Source of the DNA: an uncultured Candidatus Saccharibacteria bacterium
GTDB lineage: Bacteria; Patescibacteriota; Minisyncoccia; Phycocordibacterales; DATGWK01
Direction of reading: 5' to 3'
Assembly (NCBI GenBank): GCA_964390475.1
Contig: CAYMIB010000002.1
Span: 1 to 42,995 of the forward strand
Length of the DNA: 42,995 nt
This document shows, piece after piece, positions 21,319 to 32,255 of this stretch. Both the position numbers and the translations under genes were made by a program. How positions within the stretch are numbered: the stretch's first letter is position 1; each line of letters starts with the position of its first letter. The notes beneath the pieces were generated by a model that saw only the letters and a program-made list of their open reading frames with translations, made no database searches and had not been told where the DNA came from.

Positions 21319-23376
21319 TTATTTCTTATTTTGATATAAGCGTTCCAACTCCGCGATCTCATCGCGTAAAATCGCCGCGGTTTCGAAGTCGAGGATTTTT
21401 ACGGCATTAGACATTTGAAGCTTTTTTTCTTTGAGCAAACCTTTTGGTTTCTTTTTGAAAATTTGAGCGTCGATGGCGAGCAGATTCTGGACAGCCTTTG
21501 AATGTTCGCTTCGCATACTTTCTGAAATATCTCGAATCGCCTTGCTAATCGTTTTCGGAGTAATGCCGTGTTTTTTATTGTATTCGAGTTGAAGGGTTCG
21601 GCGGCGGTTGGTTTCGCCTATCGCTCGTTCCATCGAGCCAGTTACACGGTCGGCGTAAAGCACGACTTCACCCTCGATATTTCGAGCGGCGCGGCCGATA
21701 ATCTGTATTAGCGACGTTTCTGAACGCAAAAAACCTTCCTTATCAGCGTCGAGGATGCCGATGAAAGCCAATTCGGGCAAATCGAGACCTTCTCGAAGCA
21801 GGTTGACGCCAACAAGCACGTCGAACTCGCCACGGCGGAAACGAGTCAAAATTTCTATGCGCTCGATGGTCAAAATGTCACTATGTAAATATTCCGCTTT
21901 GATTTTTCGCTCTTTCAAAAACTCGCTCAGATCTTCCGCCATTTTTTTGGTCAGAGTGGTTGCAACCGCTCGATGCCCGCGTTTTATAAAATCTTCGGCT
22001 TTTTCTATGAAGTCCTGAACTTGGCCTTTGTAGGCGTTTTTCCCACCAGAGGCGCCGACCGAGCTCGCCATCACCGGCAACACGGTAATTTTCGGATCAA
22101 TCAAACCAGTCGGGCGAATCACCTGCTCGACAACATTTTCGCTATGCTCTGCTTCATATTTTCCCGGCGTCGCAGAAGTGTAAATCACCTGCCCGACTCG
22201 TTCCTCAAATTCATTGAACTTCAAGGGGCGGTTGTCTCGGGCTGACGGCAAACGAAAACCGTGATCAATGAGGGTTTTCTTTCGAGCCGCATCGCCGTTA
22301 TACATACCACCAATTTGCGGCACGGTGACATGCGATTCATCAATGATTGTCAGGAAATCCGGCGAACCGTCGGCTTTATGCGGAAAATATGAGAGTAAAG
22401 AATCTGGCGCATCACCAGCGATCCGTCCAGAAAAATGACGCGAATAATTTTCGATTCCACTGCAATAGCCAATTTCGCGGATCAGAGCTAGATCATACCG
22501 AGTGCGACGCTTGAGACGTTCGTGTTCGAGCACCTTGCCTTCTTTTTTAAAAAGTTTGAGCTGTTCTTCGAGTTCAGACTCGATCGTTTTAAGCGCATGT
22601 TCCACTTGCTCAGGGTTGGTAATGAAATGCTTTGCTGGAAAAAGAAAGAAAACTTTTACATCTTCCAAAATAGTGCCCGAAACACCCTCAATTTTTTTAA
22701 TGCTCACAATCTCATCGCCGTTTTTTCCAGTCCCGAGCTCGAGTCGATACACCACTTTTTCGTTGACAGGCATGATTTCGATCGAATTGCCCACCGCTCG
22801 GAATAAACCAGGGGTCAAGTCGGCATTGGTTCGTTCAAAATGAAGACCAATGAGAGCACGCATAAAATCGCCGCGATAGATTCCCTGCCCGCGCTCGATT
22901 CGCATATTTACTTTTTCGTACTCCACTGGACTACCAAGGCCATAAATACACGACACCGAAGCAACAATGATCACATCCTTCCTAGTGAGCAAAGCTTGAG
23001 TCGACGCGTGCCGAAGGCGGTCGATTTCTTCATTTATCTGTGCTTCCTTCTCTATATATGTATCCGTCACCGGCATATAGGCTTCCGGCTGATAATAGTC
23101 GTAGTAGGAAACAAAATAATGCACGGCGTTGTTAGGGAAAAATTCGCGATATTCCTGGGCAAGCTGAGCGGCCAGAGTTTTGTTGTGGGCAATAACCAGC
23201 GTCGGTTTGCCGGCGTTTGCAATGACATTGGCCACCGTAAACGTTTTTCCCGAGCCAGTTACGCCAAAAAGCGTCTGATGCTGCAGACCTTTTTTGAGTC
23301 CGTCAGTTAGACCTTGGATCGCCTTAGGCTGATCACCGGCCGGGGCGAATTCGGATTTGAGGTTAAAGAGGGACAT
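21319..23376 (-). CDS. uvrB: Excinuclease ABC subunit B
   Basis: 685 aa. GVTGSGKT, IIDESHVT and the C-terminal UVR motif FETAAILRDEIAELE. Confidence 0.95.
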   Translation of the reverse strand: MSLFNLKSEFAPAGDQPKAIQGLTDGLKKGLQHQTLFGVTGSGKTFTVANVIANAGKPTLVIAHNKTLAAQLAQEYREFFPNNAVHYFVSYYDYYQPEAYMPVTDTYIEKEAQINEEIDRLRHASTQALLTRKDVIIVASVSCIYGLGSPVEYEKVNMRIERGQGIYRGDFMRALIGLHFERTNADLTPGLFRAVGNSIEIMPVNEKVVYRLELGTGKNGDEIVSIKKIEGVSGTILEDVKVFFLFPAKHFITNPEQVEHALKTIESELEEQLKLFKKEGKVLEHERLKRRTRYDLALIREIGYCSGIENYSRHFSGRIAGDAPDSLLSYFPHKADGSPDFLTIIDESHVTVPQIGGMYNGDAARKKTLIDHGFRLPSARDNRPLKFNEFEERVGQVIYTSATPGKYEAEHSENVVEQVIRPTGLIDPKITVLPVMASSVGASGGKNAYKGQVQDFIEKAEDFIKRGHRAVATTLTKKMAEDLSEFLKERKIKAEYLHSDILTIERIEILTRFRRGEFDVLVGVNLLREGLDLPELAFIGILDADKEGFLRSETSLIQIIGRAARNIEGEVVLYADRVTGSMERAIGETNRRRTLQLEYNKKHGITPKTISKAIRDISESMRSEHSKAVQNLLAIDAQIFKKKPKGLLKEKKLQMSNAVKILDFETAAILRDEIAELERLYQNKK

Positions 23377-23456: not shown

Positions 23457-24101
23457 TAGAAGAGAAAAGAACAACTAACTAGACAGAACCCTACGAAACT
23501 GAACACCAGAAACGCCCACAAAGCCTTTCAGCAATGTGAGCCTGTACTCGACCCGAGATCACTGAACAGTACTGCACGATACCACGCATCACATGGCGAT
23601 AATCGAATAGTGCGAGACGTTTTTCAACGCCCTGCACTCTGAACTACAACGAACAAAAGAGGACTTGGCGACACAGTACAATGCGCCAGTAAATCGAACT
23701 CAAATGTACACGAAAGGCCTTTCGGCTTCTCGTGTCGGCACAGAAGATCACAGGAGGCCACCGAACTACAGGTCACGACGCTACAGAGAACCTAACTGGA
23801 CTCAATCAGAAACGCACCAAGGACCTTCCGGCCTCCGGTGCCTGTACCAATCAATACTGTACCTAACAGTACACGACACCAGGTCACTAGAATTACAAGT
23901 GCACAGAAGCCCTTTCGGATTTCTGTGCCGATAGAGAACCGGACCTTAGGGTGCTCTAGAATACAGAACTCCACGGGACAGCACTTAACCTAAAATTGCA
24001 CAGAGTGATCGAAAGATTACTCTGTGCCTAAAGTACACCATACTGTACTCAGCGACACAGAGCGGCAGAGTACAAAAGTGAACCATGTGTCCGGCTACAA
24101 A
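23457..24101 (-). ncRNA. Hairpin-unit tail downstream of the helicase ORF (six hairpin units, no intervening terminator)
   Basis: Family hairpins at 23514-23541, 23610-23637, 23708-23735, 23814-23841, 23901-23928 and 23998-24027. Five are 28 nt (12 bp + GAAA/GGAA on the minus strand) and one is 30 nt. Spacing is 87-106 nt. No credible ORF, and no promoter or terminator between the helicase stop (24102) and 23453. Confidence 0.55.
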
Positions 24102-25940
24102 TTAGAGAAGCAGCTTCTCTGCATCCTTCACCGCGGCGTCAAACGTCAGGTCGCCCATGTAGACTTGCTGAAGATGTTTGGGCAGTGAAGCGAAGACGTG
24201 GCGACGGAACTGTTGGGAAATGAAGAACGTGACGCCAACATCGGAGCGGCTCCGAATGTTGCGTCCACGAACCTGAAGCGCTTGTTGCATTGCCCGCTGA
24301 CCCCAGATCGCCCAGCGCTGACCTCCCCACCGATCCTCCTCGAACTGAGTTCCAGGATCACGAGGGTTTGGATAACTTGGACGAAGAAAAAAGATGACGG
24401 GCGCCATCTGCCTTGGAAGATCAATTCCCTCGGCGTAGTTGGCGGCGGTACCAACCAAAGTACTTCCTTCACCCTGCTTGAAGATGTTGGCAGCTTCCTT
24501 GGCTGTTACACCGTTGCCGTAGCTGATTACCTCGAGACCCTCTTCTGCGGCCATCCGCAAAAAACGATCTCGTTCATCATTTGAAACGACAACCACCAAC
24601 GAACGTAGCCCCTTGTCGGCAAACTGCTTGCATGAACGTGCAATCTGACGCAACGTTTTTGGCAGATCCCGATCGCTCCGCGTATTTCTTGCGAGGTTTG
24701 GCGTGTCGGTTGGCATGTAGACCCTTGTATTGCTGGCTGGGAAATTCGAATCGAGAGACAGGAACGGATCCTTGATCCCCGTTTCGAACCCAAAGATCTC
24801 AGGGTTGCCAATCGTTGCCGACAGCGACACCCGGTTCTTAGGCAAAATCATTTTGATGAGCGGCACTACGTAGTAGCACCGCACCACCAACTTGGTTTGG
24901 AACCGACCTTCTGAGACACGTTCCCTTCTCTGGAATGCGCAGGTGTAGTTGAGTGCCTTCCTTTCTTCGGTTGGCACTGAATACTCAAGCGTTGAGATGT
25001 ACCGCCTGAGATCTCTCACGAGAGTCTCGAGCTTTTTCAATGTGACACGATCCTCACGTGGATCGATCTTGCCCTTTTTCACAGCATCTCTGATAGCAAC
25101 AGCAAGCTCTTTCACATCGATTTCCCGGAGGATTTCGATGAGTTGAAGAACTTGTGCTGGCTTGAGAAGCGCTGCTTCACCAACTGCCATGCGACCAGCG
25201 ATTGAAATCATCTTTCGCCTGAATGTCCTCAGGACTCTTGCGACCTTTGGGGCAACTGACGTCAGAATTTCTTCTGATCGCTTGAGGTGTAGATCAGTAA
25301 TGTCGTAGGAAAGAGAGTTGCGGACGACGTTTGCCAACTGATGCGCCTCGTCGATCACCACACCTTGAGTATTGAACTCCTTTGAAAACAAGTGGGTGAA
25401 GAGAAAGAAGGACATCGTTGAGAGCACAAGCCGTGCTTTCTTTGCCTTATACTTTTGCTGAAGATACGGGCAAGCCGTTGCTCCCTTCACATGAGTCTCG
25501 CCCGTTTCTTGGTCTACCCGATGCGGGCAGTCCTGAAGAAATGAACACGGAATCTGATCGGCACGAGGATTTTCTGGATCATCGACAAGTGTTTCAAGCG
25601 TTTCCGATGAAACTCTCGGCTCGTTCCGGTAATACAAGCACGGATGCTCATTTCGTCCCAAAGCAACTGGCAGATCCGGAAACTCTATCCGAATCTGATC
25701 CAAAATCGTCTTGGTCGGCGTAATGATGAACACCGTACCGTCTGTCTGCGTTCGCATGTAGTTTGCGATCGCAAATTCCACAGCCGTTTTTCCTGTCCCT
25801 GTCGGCGCCTCGATGATTGCAGAGCCATGCTCCGCGTAAAACTCGAGCATGTCGTTTTGCACAACTCGTGGCTCACGATACACCGCCGTGCTTGGAAAGT
25901 GCGTTTTAAGCACTGGCAAGCTGATGGTCTTTTGGCCCAT
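24102..25940 (-). CDS. DinG/XPD (Rad3)-family SF2 helicase with four-Cys Fe-S cluster insertion
   Basis: 612 aa. Strong SD (gaAAGGAGGtccataATG). Walker A APTGTGKT. Cys cluster HPCLYY..IPCSFLQDCPH..ACPYLQ. DEAH box VVIDEAHQL. Motif VI QALQVRGRNIRSRSDVGVTFF. Confidence 0.8.
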   Translation of the reverse strand: MGQKTISLPVLKTHFPSTAVYREPRVVQNDMLEFYAEHGSAIIEAPTGTGKTAVEFAIANYMRTQTDGTVFIITPTKTILDQIRIEFPDLPVALGRNEHPCLYYRNEPRVSSETLETLVDDPENPRADQIPCSFLQDCPHRVDQETGETHVKGATACPYLQQKYKAKKARLVLSTMSFFLFTHLFSKEFNTQGVVIDEAHQLANVVRNSLSYDITDLHLKRSEEILTSVAPKVARVLRTFRRKMISIAGRMAVGEAALLKPAQVLQLIEILREIDVKELAVAIRDAVKKGKIDPREDRVTLKKLETLVRDLRRYISTLEYSVPTEERKALNYTCAFQRRERVSEGRFQTKLVVRCYYVVPLIKMILPKNRVSLSATIGNPEIFGFETGIKDPFLSLDSNFPASNTRVYMPTDTPNLARNTRSDRDLPKTLRQIARSCKQFADKGLRSLVVVVSNDERDRFLRMAAEEGLEVISYGNGVTAKEAANIFKQGEGSTLVGTAANYAEGIDLPRQMAPVIFFLRPSYPNPRDPGTQFEEDRWGGQRWAIWGQRAMQQALQVRGRNIRSRSDVGVTFFISQQFRRHVFASLPKHLQQVYMGDLTFDAAVKDAEKLLL

Positions 25941-26114: not shown

Positions 26115-26383
26115 TAAAAAATGCCAGCAAATCTTTCGAAATGCTGGCCTGCACTATAGGAAACTGCACAATACGTAACATTACCTCACTCTACTTCGAT
26201 CAAATTGTCGGTTGCAGATTTCTCAGCAACCGACCAGTAGACCAGAAAAACTTACGGGACATTACCATGGTGTACGATACCCCACAGTATGAAGTGTCGA
26301 TCGAGTTTTTCAACCCGACCGACCCGCGCAGAACAATACCCTGCCGGACCGTAGACTTGTTAACTGAACCACGGGGCTTGTTC
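26115..26383 (-). ncRNA. Hairpin-RNA unit U7 (2 hairpins)
   Basis: Runs from the promoter in module A to the terminator GCCAGCAtttc-GAAA-gatttGCTGGC + AUUUUUU (26123-26148). Family hairpins at 26207-26234 and 26295-26322. Confidence 0.55.
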
Positions 26384-26389
26384 GATATT

Positions 26390-26446
26390 AGAATAACACG
26401 CCAGATTTGGCTTGTAAAGTAAAAGCCGAGGGTTGGGTACCTCGGC
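26390..26446 (-). promoter_or_regulatory. Fused terminator-promoter module A
   Basis: Minus strand: GCCGAGG-tacccaac-CCTCGGC cttttacTTTACA -17 nt- TGtTATTCT. The hairpin is at 26425-26446, the -35 at 26413-26418 and the -10 at 26390-26395. Confidence 0.6.
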
Positions 26447-26809
26447 GAGTAGAACACGGAGCTGAAGGCAAGGGCACGTTAGAAAGGTTGACCCTACGAC
26501 ACTGAACCGGAAGTGTTGGCTTTGTGTTCCCACAAAACTAACCTATAGAGAACTGAACATAACTCGAGTGTAGGATACCTAGCTGGACTCTAATGAAATT
26601 GTCAGTTCGACCTTTCGACCAAACTGACCTATAGGAAAGGAAACGCGAGATCACAACGCTGGACAGTACTCCACCTGACGCTACTCAACATTACTCAACT
26701 AAAATTGTCATCCGGATTTTTCAACCCAGATGACCCATAGAATGCAGTACACCACCGCACGGCACCTCACACCACTTGAGGCTACTCAACATTACTGAAC
26801 CCAAGTTCC
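26417..26809 (-). ncRNA. Hairpin-RNA unit U6 (3 hairpins)
   Basis: Lies between the module B promoter and the module A terminator. Hairpins at 26515-26542, 26601-26628 and 26707-26734. Confidence 0.55.
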
Positions 26810-26815
26810 AAAAGG

Positions 26816-26872
26816 ATAATAACACGGAATATAATTTTTGTAAAATAAAAGCCGAGGGTTGATTACCTCGGC
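26816..26872 (-). promoter_or_regulatory. Fused terminator-promoter module B
   Basis: Minus strand: GCCGAGG-taatcaac-CCTCGGC ttttatTTTACA -17 nt- TGtTATTAT. Hairpin at 26851-26872, -35 at 26839-26844, -10 at 26816-26821. Confidence 0.65.
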
Positions 26873-27663
26873 GTACACTGTGGTCGACTTCGCATGACGA
26901 TACGAAACTAGACACGAACAAACTTGAAGTGTTGGCTGACCTTTTCAAGTCCGCCAACGAGCAGTGCGACAAACATTACTATAGTGCACAACACAATACA
27001 GTGCGCTATTTACCAGGTGGTCAAAAGTGTCAGTCGAGCCTTTCGGTCCAACTGACCCAAACATCACGTTAGGAGAGAGTGCCTTACTGCACAATACCTA
27101 GCCTGACAAGACCAGACAAATCGTCAGCGAGATCTTTGAACCTCGCTGACCCATACAGCAGTTTACTATTCCTTACTAGACTGAGCTATGCTCTAGAACA
27201 GTGAACCGCGTTTATCTATTACAATATCTCAACCGATTTTTTCAAACCGGTCGAGCCTTAGAATACCGTGATGTAGAAGACAGGAGACTACGTCGCCATA
27301 CTCGACCTGAGTCTACCCGACGGTGAAAATTTGTCAGTCCAGTTTTCACCAAACTGACCGAAAGTGGAGAACACTTAGGTATACGGCACAATACCGTACG
27401 ATACCCTGGCGAACTAAAACGTCAGTTCAACCTTCCGGCTAGACTGACCTACAGATAACTGAACCTGACTCGAACGCAGGTTACCTAGCTGGACTCTAAT
27501 GAAATTGTCAGTTCGACCTTTCGACCAAACTGACCGATAGAAAACTCAACTTGGCGGAACAAAACTGGACGCAACTAGAATTGTCATCCGGATTTTTCAA
27601 CCCAGATGACCAGTACTGCTCAGTAGCCAACTGCGCGGGACTCAACCTTGCAATACTCTATCC
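26843..27663 (-). ncRNA. Hairpin-RNA unit U5 (8 hairpins, longest unit)
   Basis: Hairpins at 26931-26958, 27029-27056, 27123-27150, 27228-27255, 27333-27358, 27421-27448, 27507-27534 and 27583-27610. Bounded by the module C promoter and the module B terminator. Confidence 0.55.
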
Positions 27664-27669
27664 GAATGC

Positions 27670-27724
27670 ATAATAACATGAATTATTTTTTTGTAAAATA
27701 AAAACCGAGGGTTGGTTACCTCGG
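27670..27724 (-). promoter_or_regulatory. Fused terminator-promoter module C
   Basis: Minus strand: CCGAGG-taaccaac-CCTCGG tttttatTTTACA -16 nt- TGtTATTAT. Hairpin at 27705-27724, -35 at 27692-27697, -10 at 27670-27675. Confidence 0.6.
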
Positions 27725-28099
27725 CGAAAAGCTAAGTGCCAATCACTTCTTTCGAAGAGAATGGCCCATACACAGCGGTACCGCACGCCAGGCCACCTGA
27801 CCTTACAGTGGTACACGAAGCTGAAATTGCTAGTCGAACTTTTCAGTTCGACTAGCCGGTACAAGACTCATGAGTACACGACCGAAGTCAACAGAACACT
27901 ACCGGAAATGTCAGCGTCACCTCTCGGCGAAACTGACCTACAGAGGAGTCAACACTGGGTTGCTGCACAAAACTCTACCTAACACTGCTACACGAAAGGA
28001 CAAAATGTCGAACTTGTGTTTCCACAAGATCGACCCTCAGAACACAAAGCCAGACTGGACAGAGCAACACACCACTAAACCATGTTATAAAAGCTGTCT
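27697..28099 (-). ncRNA. Hairpin-RNA unit U4 (4 hairpins)
   Basis: Hairpins at 27738-27765, 27829-27856 (perfect 12 bp + GAAA), 27910-27937 (GAGA loop) and 28007-28034. Confidence 0.55.
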
Positions 28100-28105
28100 A
28101 GCAAG

Positions 28106-28159
28106 ACAATAACACAAATTATTTTTTTGTAAAGAAAAACCGGCCACTTGGACCGGTTT
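28106..28159 (-). promoter_or_regulatory. Fused terminator-promoter module D (terminates the 86-aa ORF, promotes U4)
   Basis: Minus strand: AAACCGGtccaagtggCCGGTTT ttcTTTACA -16 nt- TGtTATTGT. The hairpin sequence differs from the other modules, but the promoter half is conserved. Confidence 0.6.
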
Positions 28160-28177
28160 GTGCTGTGACTCAGAGAT

Positions 28178-28438
28178 TCACTCGAACAAATAGAAGAGCT
28201 CTCCCTTCACGAGATCCTTCTCCTCAACCTCAATTTTCCCCTCAATCTCCTTAAGGATTTCTTTCCAATTCTCGGTGTTCTCACCAGTCCGGTATGTGAA
28301 TCTCTCAGCAATAGACTCACACCGTCCACCACCCTCTTGCCTTTGGCAGAGAATTCTGTCGGCCTCTTCCCGATTTTCAGCCAGAATCACGTAGCTGGTC
28401 AAGCCTGGTCCTGTGTAAATGTACGCCTTCAATTCCAT
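28178..28438 (-). CDS. Orphan 86-aa protein occupying one slot of the RNA-unit array
   Basis: The internal ATG at 28438 has the SD aAGGGGAaagtcATG. The track start at 28513 abuts the upstream terminator with no room for a promoter or RBS. Product MELKAYIYTGPGLTSYVILAENREEADRILCQ... has no motif I recognise. Confidence 0.6.
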   Translation of the reverse strand: MELKAYIYTGPGLTSYVILAENREEADRILCQRQEGGGRCESIAERFTYRTGENTENWKEILKEIEGKIEVEEKDLVKGELFYLFE

Positions 28439-28475
28439 GACTTTCCCCTTCGTTTGTGTGTTTGGATCTTTTCTC

Positions 28476-28504
28476 AGAGTATCATAAATATAAATACTTG
28501 TCAA
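28476..28504 (-). promoter_or_regulatory. Extended -10 promoter of the 86-aa ORF
   Basis: Minus strand: TTGACAagtatttatatttaTGaTACTCT with a 17-nt spacer. Confidence 0.55.
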
Positions 28505-28518
28505 ATGGACCATTCATA

Positions 28519-28800
28519 ATAAAAAAGTCGAGGATTGGTTACCTCGACGCGCACCAGGGTAAAGACTAGGCTACGAAACAAAACGGAACACTACTTTGCG
28601 AAATTGAAATTATTAGCTGAGCCTTTCGACCCAGCTAATCTACAGAGGAACAGACTGAGGTTAACGGTGCGATACGTTACCGTACGCCGCCTTAGACCAA
28701 ATTGTCAATCTCGCCTTTCAGCCAGACTGACCCGGAGAGTACTACAGTCAACAGCGGTAGACGGTAGATCACTGCACGTGAGTGAAGAACATCACGATCC
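28519..28800 (-). ncRNA. Hairpin-RNA unit U3 (2 hairpins)
   Basis: Hairpins at 28612-28639 (AUUAG.../...CUAAU base) and 28704-28731. Confidence 0.55.
28521..28548 (-). terminator. Terminator E (ends unit U3)
   Basis: Minus strand: GTCGAGG-taaccaat-CCTCGAC followed by TTTTTTATTAT. Same hairpin family as modules A-C, F and G, with a compensatory stem change. Confidence 0.65.
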
Positions 28801-28806
28801 GCACTC

Positions 28807-28862
28807 ACTATAACACGAATATCGTTTTTGTAAAATAAAAGCCAAGGGTTGGGTACCTCGGC
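28807..28862 (-). promoter_or_regulatory. Fused terminator-promoter module F
   Basis: Minus strand: GCCGAGG-tacccaac-CCTTGGC ttttatTTTACA -16 nt- TGtTATAGT. The stem has a G.U pair on the minus strand, which would be an A.C mismatch on the + strand. Confidence 0.6.
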
Positions 28863-29043
28863 GAGTAGGAAGGTGGACACCAGAAGACGATGCGAAACAC
28901 AACAGTAAAACACTGAACTTTATTTTTTTGAATTGTCAGCCCAGTTTTTCAACCGGACTGACCCGCAGACAACTACACAGCAGTAGAGTACACGTCACAT
29001 CACGCAACTCGACCGTGCAAAACGTAACCTCAATTACTTTTCT
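28833..29043 (-). ncRNA. Hairpin-RNA unit U2 (1 hairpin)
   Basis: Single hairpin at 28935-28962, identical in sequence to the inverted copy at 30833-30860. Confidence 0.55.
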
Positions 29044-29049
29044 TCAAAG

Positions 29050-29105
29050 ACAATAACATGGATTTATATTTTGTAAAATAAAAGCCAAGGATTGGTTACC
29101 TTGGC
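29050..29105 (-). promoter_or_regulatory. Fused terminator-promoter module G
   Basis: Minus strand: GCCAAGG-taaccaat-CCTTGGC ttttatTTTACA -16 nt- TGtTATTGT. The stem carries a compensatory G-C to A-U change relative to modules A-C. Confidence 0.6.
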
Positions 29106-29744
29106 GTAGAGTGGAGTACACAGAACGACACTGAAGAGTGCAAGAGGATACCGCACACCACGTCACCTCAGACCACGCTAAAGCGTCAGCTCGATTTTTC
29201 AATCAAGCTGACCCGTACCTGGGAATACAACAGCTTGCTGGACGAGAGACTAGCGTACACTACTGGACCAAAGCGTCAGCTTAGTTTTTCAACCAGGCTG
29301 ACCAGCACGGAAGTCCGGCCCACGAGACATGGCTAGACACCACTTCAAATTGTCGGCATCACCTTTCGGTGTAACCGACCGGCACAGAACTCTGCCGTAG
29401 CTTACAGGGCTATACGTAACAGAGCCACAGACAAAATTAAATTGTCGACCGTGTGTTTCCACAAGATCGACCCTTAGCACAGCACAGTTAACGGCAGAAC
29501 ACGGCAGTTCACGGCACTTGAGTGTAGATCAAAGTGTTAGCCCAGCATTTCTACCGGGTTAACCAGCAGTGTACATCACCGCACATTACCAAAGACGACG
29601 TCACGCTACGAAACCTCACTTCAAAATTGTTGGCACCGCGTCTCCGCGATGCCAACCCATAGAGCACCGGACGCGACCTGGCGATACCTAACAATACCTT
29701 GGGTGACAATACCCTGGGTGACTGTACCCAACTTAGATCGATCC
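29076..29744 (-). ncRNA. Hairpin-RNA unit U1 (6 hairpins)
   Basis: Hairpins at 29185-29212, 29275-29302, 29352-29379, 29444-29471, 29536-29563 and 29629-29656. The 5' end is inferred from the putative promoter at 29751-29779. Confidence 0.5.
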
Positions 29745-29880: not shown

Positions 29881-30609
29881 ATGAAGCGTTTGCTGATCAC
29901 GTGTGTTGGTGCGTATCCCATCATGATGGACCCGATGACTGATGAAGTGCTCGACAGCCTCGCAACAGGCGTCCGTGTTCAGATCCAGAAGGATCTGTCT
30001 CATGCCGATGTCGCTCGCAAGAAGATCTACCGCGAGAATGGCGACAAGGATGGTCGGATCGGCCTGCCGACCGAAATGCTTTTCGCGGCATTGGTTGCGG
30101 CAGGTCGCAAGGTTTCCTACCGAGGCAAAACCAATATCTCGACCGCTGAAACCTCCATGTTGCCCGGCCTGCTCACGATCAACGAGGACTTCCTGCCGTT
30201 CCCAATTCCGGACGGCGCGACCGAGCCGAAGTGGACGGTCGACAAGCGGCGTGGACGTCTGGAGAACGGTACGGCTGTGTGCTTGCGTCGTCCCAAGTTC
30301 GCCGACTGGGGTTTCGAGGTCACCATTGACTTCGATGACAAGGAGATCAGCGAGGGCAAGGTTCGAGAACTCTTCAACATCGCCGGCCGGTTCTGCGGAC
30401 TCGGATCTTTCCGACCGAGCTGCAAGGGTCCGTTTGGTCGGTTCGCGGTCCAGAAACTCGCCGACATCACGCCCACCGAATGGGCGAATGAGCCGGCTGA
30501 GGAAATCGAAGAGGGCGACGACACTGACCAGACTGGCGGCGAAGAGCGCCGGACTGGCAACAGTCATGGCAGGACCGGGACCAGGAACGGCGCGCTCGCG
30601 GGAGCTTGA
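29881..30609 (+). CDS. GC-rich 242-aa hypothetical protein with RAMP-like glycine-rich motif (possible RNA-binding/processing protein)
   Basis: SD acGGAGaaagaccATG. Of three overlapping long frames this is the only one with an RBS and a balanced composition. GLGSFRPSCKGPFGRF, near the end of the folded part, resembles the RAMP/Cas6-type G-rich loop (weak). Acidic disordered tail. The functional call is low confidence. Confidence 0.75.
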   Translation: MKRLLITCVGAYPIMMDPMTDEVLDSLATGVRVQIQKDLSHADVARKKIYRENGDKDGRIGLPTEMLFAALVAAGRKVSYRGKTNISTAETSMLPGLLTINEDFLPFPIPDGATEPKWTVDKRRGRLENGTAVCLRRPKFADWGFEVTIDFDDKEISEGKVRELFNIAGRFCGLGSFRPSCKGPFGRFAVQKLADITPTEWANEPAEEIEEGDDTDQTGGEERRTGNSHGRTGTRNGALAGA

Positions 30610-30698
30610 ACCGGCAACTGACGTTCTTCAGAAGGCAATGTTGTTTTGTAGTGCATAGTAAACAGCAGTTGCGTCATGCGCGTTTCTGTTCACTATCG

Positions 30699-30756
30699 CG
30701 GGCGTCCTGAAAAGGGCGCCCGTTTTTCTTTACTAAATCGAAATTTGTGTTATCTT
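30699..30756 (+). promoter_or_regulatory. Fused terminator-promoter module on the + strand
   Basis: CGGGCGTCCT-GAAA-AGGGCGCCCG (10 bp + GAAA) followed by TTTTTcTTTACT -16 nt- TGtTATCTT. Same layout as the minus-strand modules. Confidence 0.6.
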
Positions 30757-30762
30757 GGCGTT

Positions 30763-30964
30763 TGGACTCAAGTAGACTAGTGTTCCGTTGAGTACAGCAG
30801 GCTTGAGTATGGATCAGTTCTCTTTTCCGCGGGTCAGTCCGGTTGAAAAACTGGGCTGACGATTAGACCTCAGTTTTGTGTTCCACAGTTCGCTCGTGTG
30901 ACGTGATGTCCATTTAAGTTCCGTTTTCTGTCCGCCAGGGTATCCAATCCCTGGCTTTTATTTT
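30763..30964 (+). ncRNA. Inverted (plus-strand) hairpin-RNA unit, paralogue of U2
   Basis: Hairpin at 30833-30860 (GTCAGTCCGGTT-GAAA-AACTGGGCTGAC). Terminator GCCAGGG-tatccaat-CCCTGGC + TTTTATTTT at 30934-30964, abutting the tgt stop codon. Confidence 0.55.
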
Positions 30965-30965
30965 C

Positions 30966-32255
30966 TTACACTAGATACTTTCCCAAAAACCCCCCCTTAA
31001 ACTCCGCGAACTTCCCTTCTAAAATCGCTTGGCGCATGTTTTCTACCAAATGCACGATGAAATAAAGGTTATGAATGGTCGCCAGCGTCGCGGCCAACAT
31101 TTCATCGGCCCGAAACAAGTGTGATAGATAAGCTCTGGTGTAATTTTTGCAGGTATAGCATTCGCAGTCGGCGTCAGGCCGAGAAAAATCACGGACATAC
31201 TTTGCATTGGTGAGATTAATTTTTCCGCTCGCGGTGTACAGTCCACCGTTTCGAGCGACTCTGGTCGGCGCGACGCAGTCAAAAAGATCAACACCGTTTT
31301 CGACACCCATAAAAAGATCTTCTGGCTCGCCTATGCCGAGCAAATGTCGTGGTTTTTCTTTTGGTAAAATTTCGTTCACCCACTGTACGGCCGTGATCAT
31401 GTCTTCTTTGGCAAAAGAACCACCGATGCCGAAGCCATCGAAACTCTGACCAGAAGCTGGGCCGCGCATGTCGGCAATCGCCTGGGCGCTTTCTTTACGC
31501 AAAATCTCCGAACGGCCGCCCTGAACAATTCCAAAAAGAGCAATTGGCGGTTTGTCTGCGGCCGCCCGCTCGGCCGAAAGTTTTTGGTGATGTTCAAGCG
31601 ACCGCTTCGCCCAGCGATGAGTGCGATCGAGAGCTTCGCGTTGATAATGATTCGATTCGTGTGGCGAAGTACATTCATCAAAAGCAAAAATTATGTCGGC
31701 GCCGAGATTGTGCTGAATTTCCATCGACTTTTCCGGCGTGAAGTAATGCGCACTGCCGTCGAGATGCGACCGAAATGTCACACCGTTTGGATCAATCGAA
31801 GCGATTTTTGGTTTCTCCTCACTGTCGCGACCATTTCCACCACCAACACTTCCTTCAGTTCGTTCGGCAAGCTGTAGTTCTTCGTCGCCCTCCACTGCAT
31901 GACCTTTTACAATTTTGCTAATCCCCTTTCCATACGCCGCACCAAGAGAGAAAACCTGAAAACCGCCAGAGTCGGTCATGGTCGGCCCTGGCCAATTCAT
32001 AAATTTCTGCAAACCTCCAGCGTCACGAACGAGTTCATCGCCCGGCTGAAGAAAAAGGTGGTATGTGTTGGCCAAAACAACCTGCGCACCGGTCTCGCGA
32101 ATTTGCTCAGGGGTAAGCGACTTGATAGTGGCCTTAGTAGCCACGGGGACAAAAGCCGGGGTCAAAATAGTGCCGTGGGGAGTTATAAGTTCGCCCGCAC
32201 GAGCTCTCGTGCCAGGCAACTCGGCTTTTATATTGAAAACAAAAGGTTTTTTCAC
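30966..32255 (-). CDS. tgt: tRNA-guanine transglycosylase (queuine tRNA-ribosyltransferase) with internal insertion
   Basis: 429 aa. TPAFVPVATKATIKS, TDSGGFQVFSL, FDECT and the zinc site CECYTCKNYTRAYLSHL. Carries an extra acidic/Gly-rich segment after FSLG. Confidence 0.9.
   Translation of the reverse strand: MKKPFVFNIKAELPGTRARAGELITPHGTILTPAFVPVATKATIKSLTPEQIRETGAQVVLANTYHLFLQPGDELVRDAGGLQKFMNWPGPTMTDSGGFQVFSLGAAYGKGISKIVKGHAVEGDEELQLAERTEGSVGGGNGRDSEEKPKIASIDPNGVTFRSHLDGSAHYFTPEKSMEIQHNLGADIIFAFDECTSPHESNHYQREALDRTHRWAKRSLEHHQKLSAERAAADKPPIALFGIVQGGRSEILRKESAQAIADMRGPASGQSFDGFGIGGSFAKEDMITAVQWVNEILPKEKPRHLLGIGEPEDLFMGVENGVDLFDCVAPTRVARNGGLYTASGKINLTNAKYVRDFSRPDADCECYTCKNYTRAYLSHLFRADEMLAATLATIHNLYFIVHLVENMRQAILEGKFAEFKGGFLGKYLV

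What the first reader, a model, noticed from the sequence alone, without database searches (positions are those of the whole stretch)
28129..28548. An 86-aa orphan ORF sits in one slot of the RNA-unit array
Between terminator E and module D the usual hairpin content is replaced by a small gene with four supporting elements:
- a perfect -35 (TTGACA) with an extended -10;
- an SD (AAGGGGA);
- an 86-aa ORF (MELKAYIYTGPGLTSYVILAENREEADRILCQRQEGGGRCESIAERF...);
- a distinct terminator.

It therefore uses the same unit grammar as the ncRNAs and is presumably co-regulated with them. Its charged C-terminal half (EILKEIEGKIEVEEKDLVKGELF) could be a helical interaction module.
Basis: partly seen in the sequence, partly recalled or inferred. 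Interest (0 to 1): 0.6.

Follow-up and report, generated by a model that had tools for sequence, protein, structure and literature searches.

The report
Small protein gene inside VIPR guide-RNA array
The 86-codon reading frame is a real, conserved small acidic protein gene embedded in the guide-RNA array of a CRISPR-like VIPR system in a Saccharibacteria chromosome; its only known relative sits in the same kind of array, but what it does is unknown.

Summary
On the minus strand there is an 86-aa ORF (28178-28438) with a TTGACA -35, a TG-extended but weak -10 (TACTCT), an AAGGGGA Shine-Dalgarno and its own terminator.

The "RNA-unit array" is a VIPR guide (vrRNA) array. It has YNNNG 5-nt repeats plus 28-nt GNRA hairpins and lies between a Vipr protein gene and a DinG-type helicase gene.

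The ORF is very probably translated:
- Its codon usage falls in the range of real genes and beats every shuffle.
- One homologue (71 aa, 39-46% identity) was found among 1.84 billion representative proteins.
- That homologue lies in an orthologous Vipr/helicase locus, also between vipr and helicase and on the guide strand.
- 15 of the 33 identical residues use different synonymous codons.

The gene is optional. It was not found in 13 other Vipr-positive Patescibacteria genomes, including two of the same genus.

No family, fold or partner could be assigned. My best reading is a sporadic VIPR accessory or modulator protein; a hitch-hiking cargo gene is the main rival.

Earlier notes of this scan concern this same window only, not other DNA.

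The parts
28178..28438 (-). 86-aa ORF (stop included). Small acidic protein, pI 4.7; protein id P0001.
   Evidence: codon score; homologue; synonymous changes; pI.
28444..28450 (-). Shine-Dalgarno AAGGGGA, 5 nt upstream of the ATG.
   Evidence: read directly from the sequence.
28476..28504 (-). Promoter of the ORF: TTGACA, 17-nt spacer, TACTCT, with TG at -15/-14.
   Evidence: Below the threshold of the consensus scan because the -10 matches only 3 of 6. The homologue in L001 has TTGACA-18-TATGCT with TG.
28129..28159 (-). Intrinsic terminator of the ORF unit: 9-bp stem, 5-nt loop, T-run. It is unlike the array's standard terminator hairpin.
28106..28133 (-).
28527..28548 (-).
26207..29656 (-). 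Main vrRNA array. About 25 guides, each about 10-12 YNNNG units followed by a 28-nt hairpin (12-bp stem, GNRA loop), split by terminator-promoter modules. The ORF cassette interrupts it between the hairpins at 28007-28034 and 28612-28639.
29881..30609 (+). vipr gene (242 aa), the RAMP-like guide-binding protein.
   Evidence: phrog_4652 at E 4e-17. tblastn to the phage SUSP1 Vipr. hhalign 97.1% probability, E 7e-11, over 170 columns against SUSP1 Vipr.
24102..25940 (-). DinG/XPD-type helicase (612 aa), the accessory enzyme of the locus.
   Evidence: Pfam DEAD_2 and Helicase_C_2. PADLOC typeIV_DinG at E 5.6e-41. Conserved next to vipr in L001, L005, L006, L025 and others.
23514..23928 (-). Five further guide hairpins with YNNNG tracts downstream of the helicase gene.

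Best explanation
The ORF is a translated gene for an 86-aa acidic cytoplasmic protein. It belongs to a tiny family with two known members. Both members are embedded, in the guide orientation, in the vrRNA array between vipr and a DinG-type helicase gene of VIPR loci in Saccharibacteria/Patescibacteria.

In this window it is a self-contained cassette with its own sigma-70-type promoter, Shine-Dalgarno and terminator. The cassette looks as if it had been spliced into one of the array's standard terminator-promoter modules.

I read it as an optional VIPR accessory or modulator protein, made alongside the guides. It would act on the Vipr-vrRNA complex or the helicase, for example by tuning assembly or restraining DNA binding, rather than on the DNA target itself.

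Shown: the gene is real, it is conserved at the protein level, and all known members are located in VIPR arrays.

Inferred: any functional tie to VIPR and any mechanism.
For: Coding:
- The codon score lies within the range of real genes and above all shuffles and all array windows.
- The homologue P0002 was found at E 3.3e-5 among 1.84e9 proteins.
- The N-terminal block (KAY.Y...V.I.A.NREEAD..CQ) and the C-terminal block (IEVEEK.LVKGELF...E) are conserved around a variable, indel-bearing middle.
- 15 of 33 identical residues use different synonymous codons, and differences per codon position are 28/22/40.

Linkage to VIPR:
- The only homologue lies in L001 between a Vipr (50% identical) and a helicase (56% identical). 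It is on the guide strand, with a TTGACA / TG-extended promoter of the same build, and is followed directly by guide tracts.
- The small protein's divergence (39-46% identity) is similar to that of Vipr and the helicase. This fits long residence in the system rather than a recent transfer.
- No homologue was found anywhere outside such loci.

Context is VIPR: Vipr matches the SUSP1 Vipr at 97% hhalign probability, and the array has YNNNG guides with a structured 3' hairpin, as described in bioRxiv 10.64898/2026.04.26.720920.
Against: - The family has only two members, so the co-occurrence rests on two independent loci.
- The gene was not found in 13 other Vipr-positive Patescibacteria genomes searched whole or in the L006 locus. 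These include two species of the same genus with the syntenic uvrB-tgt locus (L005, L025). It is therefore dispensable for the system.
- Unrelated cargo (a HicAB toxin-antitoxin pair) also sits in the L001 array, which shows that arrays tolerate hitch-hikers.
- No family, confident fold or functional motif was found. The AlphaFold models are poor (pLDDT 55 and 62).
Confidence: 0.5

Rival explanations
1. It is hitch-hiking cargo: a real small gene whose function has nothing to do with VIPR. It sits in the array because the repetitive, fast-turning-over, non-essential array is a permissive landing site. It might for example be a remnant of a mobile element or a stress or addiction factor.
For: - The distribution is sporadic. 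The gene is missing from the two Vipr-positive congeners and from 11 other Vipr-positive genomes.
- Its promoter and terminator differ from the array's own modules, and the cassette looks inserted into a standard module.
- HicAB and two other unrelated small ORFs occupy the L001 array.
- The nearest structural and feature look-alikes are small phage hypothetical proteins.
- There is a weak N-terminal match to a 68-aa early-region ORF of an IMG/VR prophage.
Against: - Both known members are in the same kind of locus, at the same relative place and orientation, even though every component of the two loci is about 50% diverged.
- None was found elsewhere among 1.84e9 representative proteins or 50,697 phage records.
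- The IMG/VR match was pre-selected by the NREEAD pattern and covers only 33 columns (hhalign 81%).
Confidence: 0.3
2. It is a built-in brake or safeguard: an acidic, possibly DNA-mimicking inhibitor of the Vipr-vrRNA complex, or an addiction-type factor. It would limit self-targeting or stabilise the locus, by analogy with anti-CRISPR-like self-regulators and the CreTA modules in CRISPR loci.
For: - pI 4.7, with 19 acidic against 12 basic residues in both members.
- Location inside a chromosomal guide array with a strong -35.
- HicAB at the analogous place in L001 suggests that arrays carry stabilising modules.
Against: - No guide of this array or of L005 matches the cassette under 0-, 1- or 2-nt skip rules beyond shuffled controls.
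- Structural similarity to anti-CRISPR proteins is within noise (Z at most 3.1).
- There is no partner toxin gene in the window.
Confidence: 0.12
3. It is a chance ORF that is not translated. The slot would then encode an RNA, or be a decayed guide unit.
For: - An ORF of this length is expected by chance in 58% of simulations of the region.
- The -10 hexamer is weak.
- There are no expression data.
Against: - Codon score.
- Protein-level conservation with synonymous substitutions and in-frame indels across about 50%-diverged loci.
- Base composition is A+G-rich, unlike the U/G-rich guides, and the slot has no 5-nt periodicity or GNRA hairpin.
- A Shine-Dalgarno is present in both loci.
Confidence: 0.05

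Closest known systems
VIPR systems (Vipr protein + vrRNA + vap accessory genes), bioRxiv 10.64898/2026.04.26.720920; types with helicase accessory genes
   Same: - The locus has a Vipr homologue (97% hhalign probability to the SUSP1 Vipr).
- It has arrays of 5-nt-period guides with a structured 3' element. The YNNNG variant is named in the paper's methods.
- It has a helicase accessory gene (types III-V).
- It lies in a chromosome between housekeeping genes, as do 25% of the reported systems.
   Different: - The papers describe loci with 'typically only two protein-coding genes'. In the texts I could read they mention no protein gene embedded in the guide array.
- The small protein shows no similarity to SUSP1 vap1 (hhalign 0.9%).
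- The 3' handle here is a simple 12-bp GNRA hairpin, not a pseudoknot.
- The array is cut into separately promoted units.
vap genes (vipr-accessory proteins vap1-6)
   Same: Encoded inside a VIPR locus and recurring in a second, diverged locus of the same type.
   Different: - Present in only 2 of the roughly 16 Vipr-positive loci or genomes examined.
- No DNA-binding or enzymatic domain is recognisable.
- Much smaller (71-86 aa) than SUSP1 vap1 (146 aa).
Protein or toxin-antitoxin genes lodged in CRISPR loci (e.g. CreTA safeguards, array-adjacent anti-CRISPR/Aca genes); recalled from general knowledge, not tested
   Same: A small gene embedded in a guide-RNA locus, with HicAB found at the analogous place in L001.
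   Different: No toxin partner, no guide match to the cassette, and no sequence or confident fold similarity.

Membership tests
VIPR system (locus context) | A Vipr (minimal RAMP) protein homologous to characterised Viprs | tested here: met
   hhalign of the 9-sequence Vipr alignment against SUSP1 Vipr: 97.1% probability, E 7e-11, 170 columns. tblastn hits to 122 phage records including SUSP1. phrog_4652 at E 4e-17.
VIPR system (locus context) | Guide RNAs made of tandem 5-nt repeats (GGYNN or a related consensus such as YNNNG), followed by a conserved structured 3' tail | tested here: met
   About 30 tracts of 9-12 YNNNG units, in register with a 28-nt GNRA hairpin, on the minus strand. The same layout occurs in L005. 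The YNNNG variant is listed in the paper's methods.
VIPR system (locus context) | An accessory (vap) gene next to vipr; a helicase or nuclease in types III-V | tested here: met
   DinG/XPD-type helicase, conserved beside vipr in at least 8 loci.
VIPR system (locus context) | vrRNAs are expressed and bound by Vipr, and DNA recognition is guided by the RNA | not testable with these tools
   No expression or binding data are available for this uncultured organism.
vap (vipr-accessory protein), for the 86-aa protein | [quoted passage not shown] | tested here: inconclusive
   Present in two diverged loci (window and L001). Not found in 13 other Vipr-positive genomes or in L006.
vap (vipr-accessory protein), for the 86-aa protein | Homology to a described vap (only SUSP1 vap1 was available to me) | tested here: not met
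   hhalign probability 0.9% against SUSP1 vap1. Sequences of vap2-6 were not available.
HicB-like antitoxin (considered because of the beta-beta-alpha N-terminus and the HicAB pair in L001) | A match to the HicB/UPF0150 profiles, or to the HicB of the L001 array | tested here: not met
   No Pfam, NCBIfam or PADLOC hit. hhalign 0.06% against the L001 HicB.
Anti-CRISPR-like small acidic inhibitors | Fold or sequence similarity to a known inhibitor | tested here: inconclusive
   Best Z scores were 3.1 (AcrIIA15), 2.4 (AcrIE2) and 2.3 (AcrIC9), among unrelated rows and using a model with pLDDT 62.

The most novel reading that the evidence does not exclude
The 86-aa protein founds a new class of VIPR accessory factor: a small acidic protein encoded inside the guide array and, in L001, co-transcribed with the vrRNAs. 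It would bind the Vipr-vrRNA filament or the DinG-type helicase to control when the chromosomal system engages DNA. That would make it the first protein regulator reported for VIPR.
Probability: 0.3. Interest if true: 0.65.

Novelty: new variant of a known kind. Interest (0 to 1): 0.45.

Why it matters
VIPR systems were described only in 2026, as minimal two-gene RNA-guided DNA-recognition systems. How the chromosomal, helicase-linked types are controlled is not known.

A conserved protein-coding cassette inside the guide array, present in two loci that have diverged by about 50%, is a concrete candidate for an extra component or regulator. It is cheap to test in the published E. coli reporter assays.

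If it proves to be unrelated cargo, it still shows that vrRNA arrays, like CRISPR loci, collect small genes and toxin-antitoxin modules.

Tried and rejected
- **Family searches.** Pfam, PHROGs, NCBIfam, PADLOC and PDB-sequence profile searches of the small protein found no family.
- **Homologue searches.** The word-indexed searches (5.8e9 proteins) with the single sequence and with the 2-sequence profile returned only the protein itself and P0002. P0003 from the exhaustive search is a low-complexity tandem-repeat artefact. tblastn against 50,697 phage records found nothing at E <= 1.
- **Structure.** The AlphaFold2 models have pLDDT 55 (P0001) and 62 (P0002); only the N-terminal beta-hairpin plus helix reaches 65-82.
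  - Foldseek against PDB: nothing at E <= 0.001.
  - VIA-align wide search: best Z 4.1, which is within noise.
  - ESM Atlas by shape and by features: only small phage hypothetical proteins and YosH_C, at TM 0.55-0.6 and scores below 0.9.
- **Complex prediction.** A three-chain job with Vipr 1-205, the helicase and the small protein gave no verdict (score 0.00), so it is no evidence either way.
- **Guide targeting of the cassette.** 41 guides from the window and L005 were tested under 0-, 1- and 2-nt skip rules. The best matches were 18-19 of 30 positions, equal to shuffled controls. The true rule for YNNNG guides is unknown.
- **HicB relationship.** Rejected.
- **IMG/VR prophage ORF (L007 9986-10192).** It shares the ...AENREEAD... 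N-terminal motif (hhalign 81%, 33 columns). The hit was selected by that very pattern, so I treat it as a lead only.
- **Empty orthologous site.** I tried to define one in the congeners. The arrays share only hairpins and terminator-promoter modules and no guides, so gain and loss cannot be told apart.
- **L002.** This is the same strain (1 mismatch in 6638 nt) and adds nothing.
- **G226 match.** The E 0.0088 match lies inside a 269-aa frame and was disregarded.

Full report
**1. The observation**

| Element | Coordinates | Source |
|---|---|---|
| ORF, 86 aa, sequence as quoted | ATG 28438 to TGA 28178-28180 | |
| -35 TTGACA | 28504-28499 | |
| Spacer | 17 nt | |
| TG | 28484-28483 | |
| -10 TACTCT | 28481-28476 | |
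| Shine-Dalgarno AAGGGGA | 28450-28444, 5 nt before the ATG | |
| Terminator AAACCGGTCCAAGTGGCCGGTTT + T-run | 28159-28137 | |

- The -10 matches only 3 of 6 consensus positions. The simple promoter scan therefore lists the array's own promoters but not this one.
- A longer in-frame start at 28513 (111 aa) lies upstream of the promoter, has no Shine-Dalgarno, and is not supported by the homologue's start.
- Length alone proves nothing: 58% of Markov simulations of the 3.9-kb region give an ATG ORF of at least 86 codons.

**2. What the surroundings are**

The window belongs to an 828-kb, 74-contig genome. A congener is titled "uncultured Candidatus Saccharibacteria". Between uvrB (21319-23376) and tgt (30966-32255) lies an island with three components.

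- *Vipr gene.* A 242-aa protein at 29881-30609 (+).
  - It has no Pfam family but matches phrog_4652.
  - It matches 122 phage records including phage SUSP1 by tblastn.
  - As a 9-sequence profile it aligns to the experimentally characterised SUSP1 Vipr at 97.1% probability over 170 columns.
- *Helicase gene.* A 612-aa DinG/XPD-type helicase at 24102-25940 (-). Its best PADLOC match is the type IV-A CRISPR DinG, E 5.6e-41.
- *Guide array.* About 30 units on the minus strand. Each is 9-12 repeats of YNNNG in exact register with a 28-nt hairpin (12-bp stem, GNRA loop). The array is cut into transcription units by fused terminator-promoter modules.

This matches the VIPR systems of bioRxiv 10.64898/2026.04.26.720920. 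That paper describes Vipr, vrRNAs with 5-nt tandem repeats (YNNNG is named as a variant), a structured 3' tail, helicase or nuclease accessory genes in types III-V, and 25% of systems in chromosomes. Earlier notes of this scan on this same window gave me the VIPR lead; I checked it independently as described above.

**3. Is the ORF a gene?**

- *Composition.* The slot between the hairpins at 28007-28034 and 28612-28639 contains no hairpin and no 5-nt periodicity. It is A+G-rich on the sense strand, whereas the guides are U/G-rich.
- *Codon usage.* The per-codon log-odds against the genome's long ORFs is 0.153. This is the 38th percentile of real 86-codon windows (0.175 +/- 0.084). It is above every off-frame window, every one of 2000 shuffles (maximum 0.102) and every window of the array (maximum 0.088).
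- *Homology.* An exhaustive phmmer search of 1.84 billion representative proteins found one true relative, P0002 (71 aa, E 3.3e-5; pairwise 3e-16).
  - Both ends align: KAY.Y...V.I.A.NREEAD..CQ at the N-terminus and IEVEEK.LVKGELF...E at the C-terminus.
  - The middle varies and carries in-frame indels.
  - 15 of the 33 identical residues use different synonymous codons. Differences per codon position are 28, 22 and 40.
  - This pattern indicates selection on the protein.

I put translation at about 0.9.

**4. Where the homologue sits**

P0002 is encoded on a 9.6-kb Logan contig, L001, and on a second contig from a sister sample.

- L001 carries a Vipr 50% identical to the window's and a helicase 56% identical.
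- The intergenic DNA is full of period-5 guide tracts with a different handle hairpin.
- The small gene lies between vipr and the helicase on the guide strand.
- It sits behind a TTGACA-18-TATGCT promoter with TG, which has the same build as the window's. It has a GGAG Shine-Dalgarno.
- The first guide tract begins immediately after its stop codon, and no terminator-like site is seen until after at least two guides. Co-transcription with guides is therefore likely there; this is an inference.
- The flanking chromosomal genes differ (TsaD, PrsW, HSP20), so the two loci are independent insertions of related systems.

**5. Presence and absence**

- Whole-genome six-frame searches with the 2-sequence profile found the gene only in the window's genome. 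The samples were 401 Patescibacteria genomes and 61 close relatives.
- The same samples contain 13 other Vipr-positive genomes. Many have the DinG-type helicase adjacent.
- Two Vipr-positive genomes are of the same genus: G404 (= L005) and G403 (= L025). Both have the syntenic uvrB-helicase-array-vipr-tgt locus, helicases 76% identical, and the same hairpin and terminator families. Neither has the small gene.
- L006, a metagenome locus with Vipr at 53% and helicase at 55% identity, also lacks it.
- Arrays of different species share no guides. Orthologous slots therefore cannot be defined, and gain cannot be told from loss.
- In the window, the cassette is bounded by the two halves of what elsewhere is one module: a standard terminator hairpin plus T-run on one side, and a T-run plus TTTACA promoter on the other. 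This looks like an insertion into a module.

**6. What the protein might be**

- It is acidic (pI 4.7 in both members) and hydrophilic, with no signal peptide or membrane segment.
- No family was found in any library.
- It has no similarity to SUSP1 vap1 or to HicB.
- The AlphaFold2 models are weak (pLDDT 55 and 62). Both agree on an N-terminal beta-hairpin followed by a helix that starts at NREEAD.
- The helix predicted at residues 55-65 of P0001 lies in a segment absent from P0002. The conserved C-terminal block has a beta-like alternation.
- Fold and atlas searches gave only noise-level or generic small-phage-protein matches.

**7. Interpretation**

*Firmly supported:* this is a real small gene, a member of a two-member family found so far only inside vrRNA arrays of Vipr+DinG-type loci, and dispensable for the system.

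*Best mechanistic reading (0.5):* an optional accessory or modulator of VIPR, made with the guides.

- Every known member is in the same place in the same kind of locus.
- Divergence between the two members parallels that of Vipr and the helicase.

*Main rival (0.3):* unrelated cargo. This is favoured by the patchy distribution, by the cassette's foreign-looking promoter and terminator, and by the HicAB pair and other small ORFs lodged in the L001 array.

*Brake or safeguard variant (0.12):* this rests only on acidity and analogy. No guide matches the cassette under simple skip rules.

*Chance ORF (about 0.05).*

**8. Novelty and score**

The VIPR papers I could read describe minimal two-gene loci and no protein gene within the guide array. 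A conserved array-embedded protein cassette is therefore a new variant of a known kind of system.

The evidence base is two loci and no functional data. Interest is moderate, at 0.45.

Noticed in passing
L001:3959-4394: A HicB/HicA toxin-antitoxin pair sits inside the vrRNA array of the related VIPR locus, between guide units and upstream of the helicase. It may be an addiction module that stabilises the array.
   Followed up: partly
L001:1071-1454 (+) and L001:1940-2209 (-): Two further small ORFs (127 aa with a weak DUF2103 match, and 89 aa) lie between vipr and the small-protein homologue. The 89-aa gene has a perfect divergent TTGACA-16-TATAAT promoter back-to-back with the small gene's promoter. 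Neither has a counterpart in the window.
   Followed up: partly
window 26527-26765 and 27433-27641: A block of about 240 nt (three hairpins with their guides) is duplicated within the array at 74-80% identity. Two hairpins are identical while the guide tracts have diverged. This suggests the array grows by segmental duplication followed by guide divergence.
   Followed up: no
window 30770-30860 (+): A lone guide-like tract, ending in a hairpin identical to the one at 28935-28962, lies on the + strand downstream of vipr, after a vipr terminator at about 30697-30730. It could be a solo vrRNA transcribed with or after vipr.
   Followed up: no
window array, all guides: The second-to-last 5-nt unit before the hairpin very often ends in C instead of G (e.g. 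TTCTC TATAG, TACTC TCCGG), in both the window and L005. This position-specific departure from YNNNG next to the handle may mark the end of the guide.
   Followed up: no
L005 / L025 versus the window: Among species of the same genus the helicase is 76% identical but Vipr only 53-57%, and no guides are shared. Vipr and the array evolve much faster than the helicase.
   Followed up: partly
L007:9986-10192: A 68-aa ORF in the early (recombination-gene) region of an IMG/VR prophage shares the N-terminal ...F.I.AENREEAD... motif with the small protein (hhalign 81% over 33 columns). It could be a remote phage relative or a convergent beta-hairpin/helix-cap motif.
   Followed up: partly
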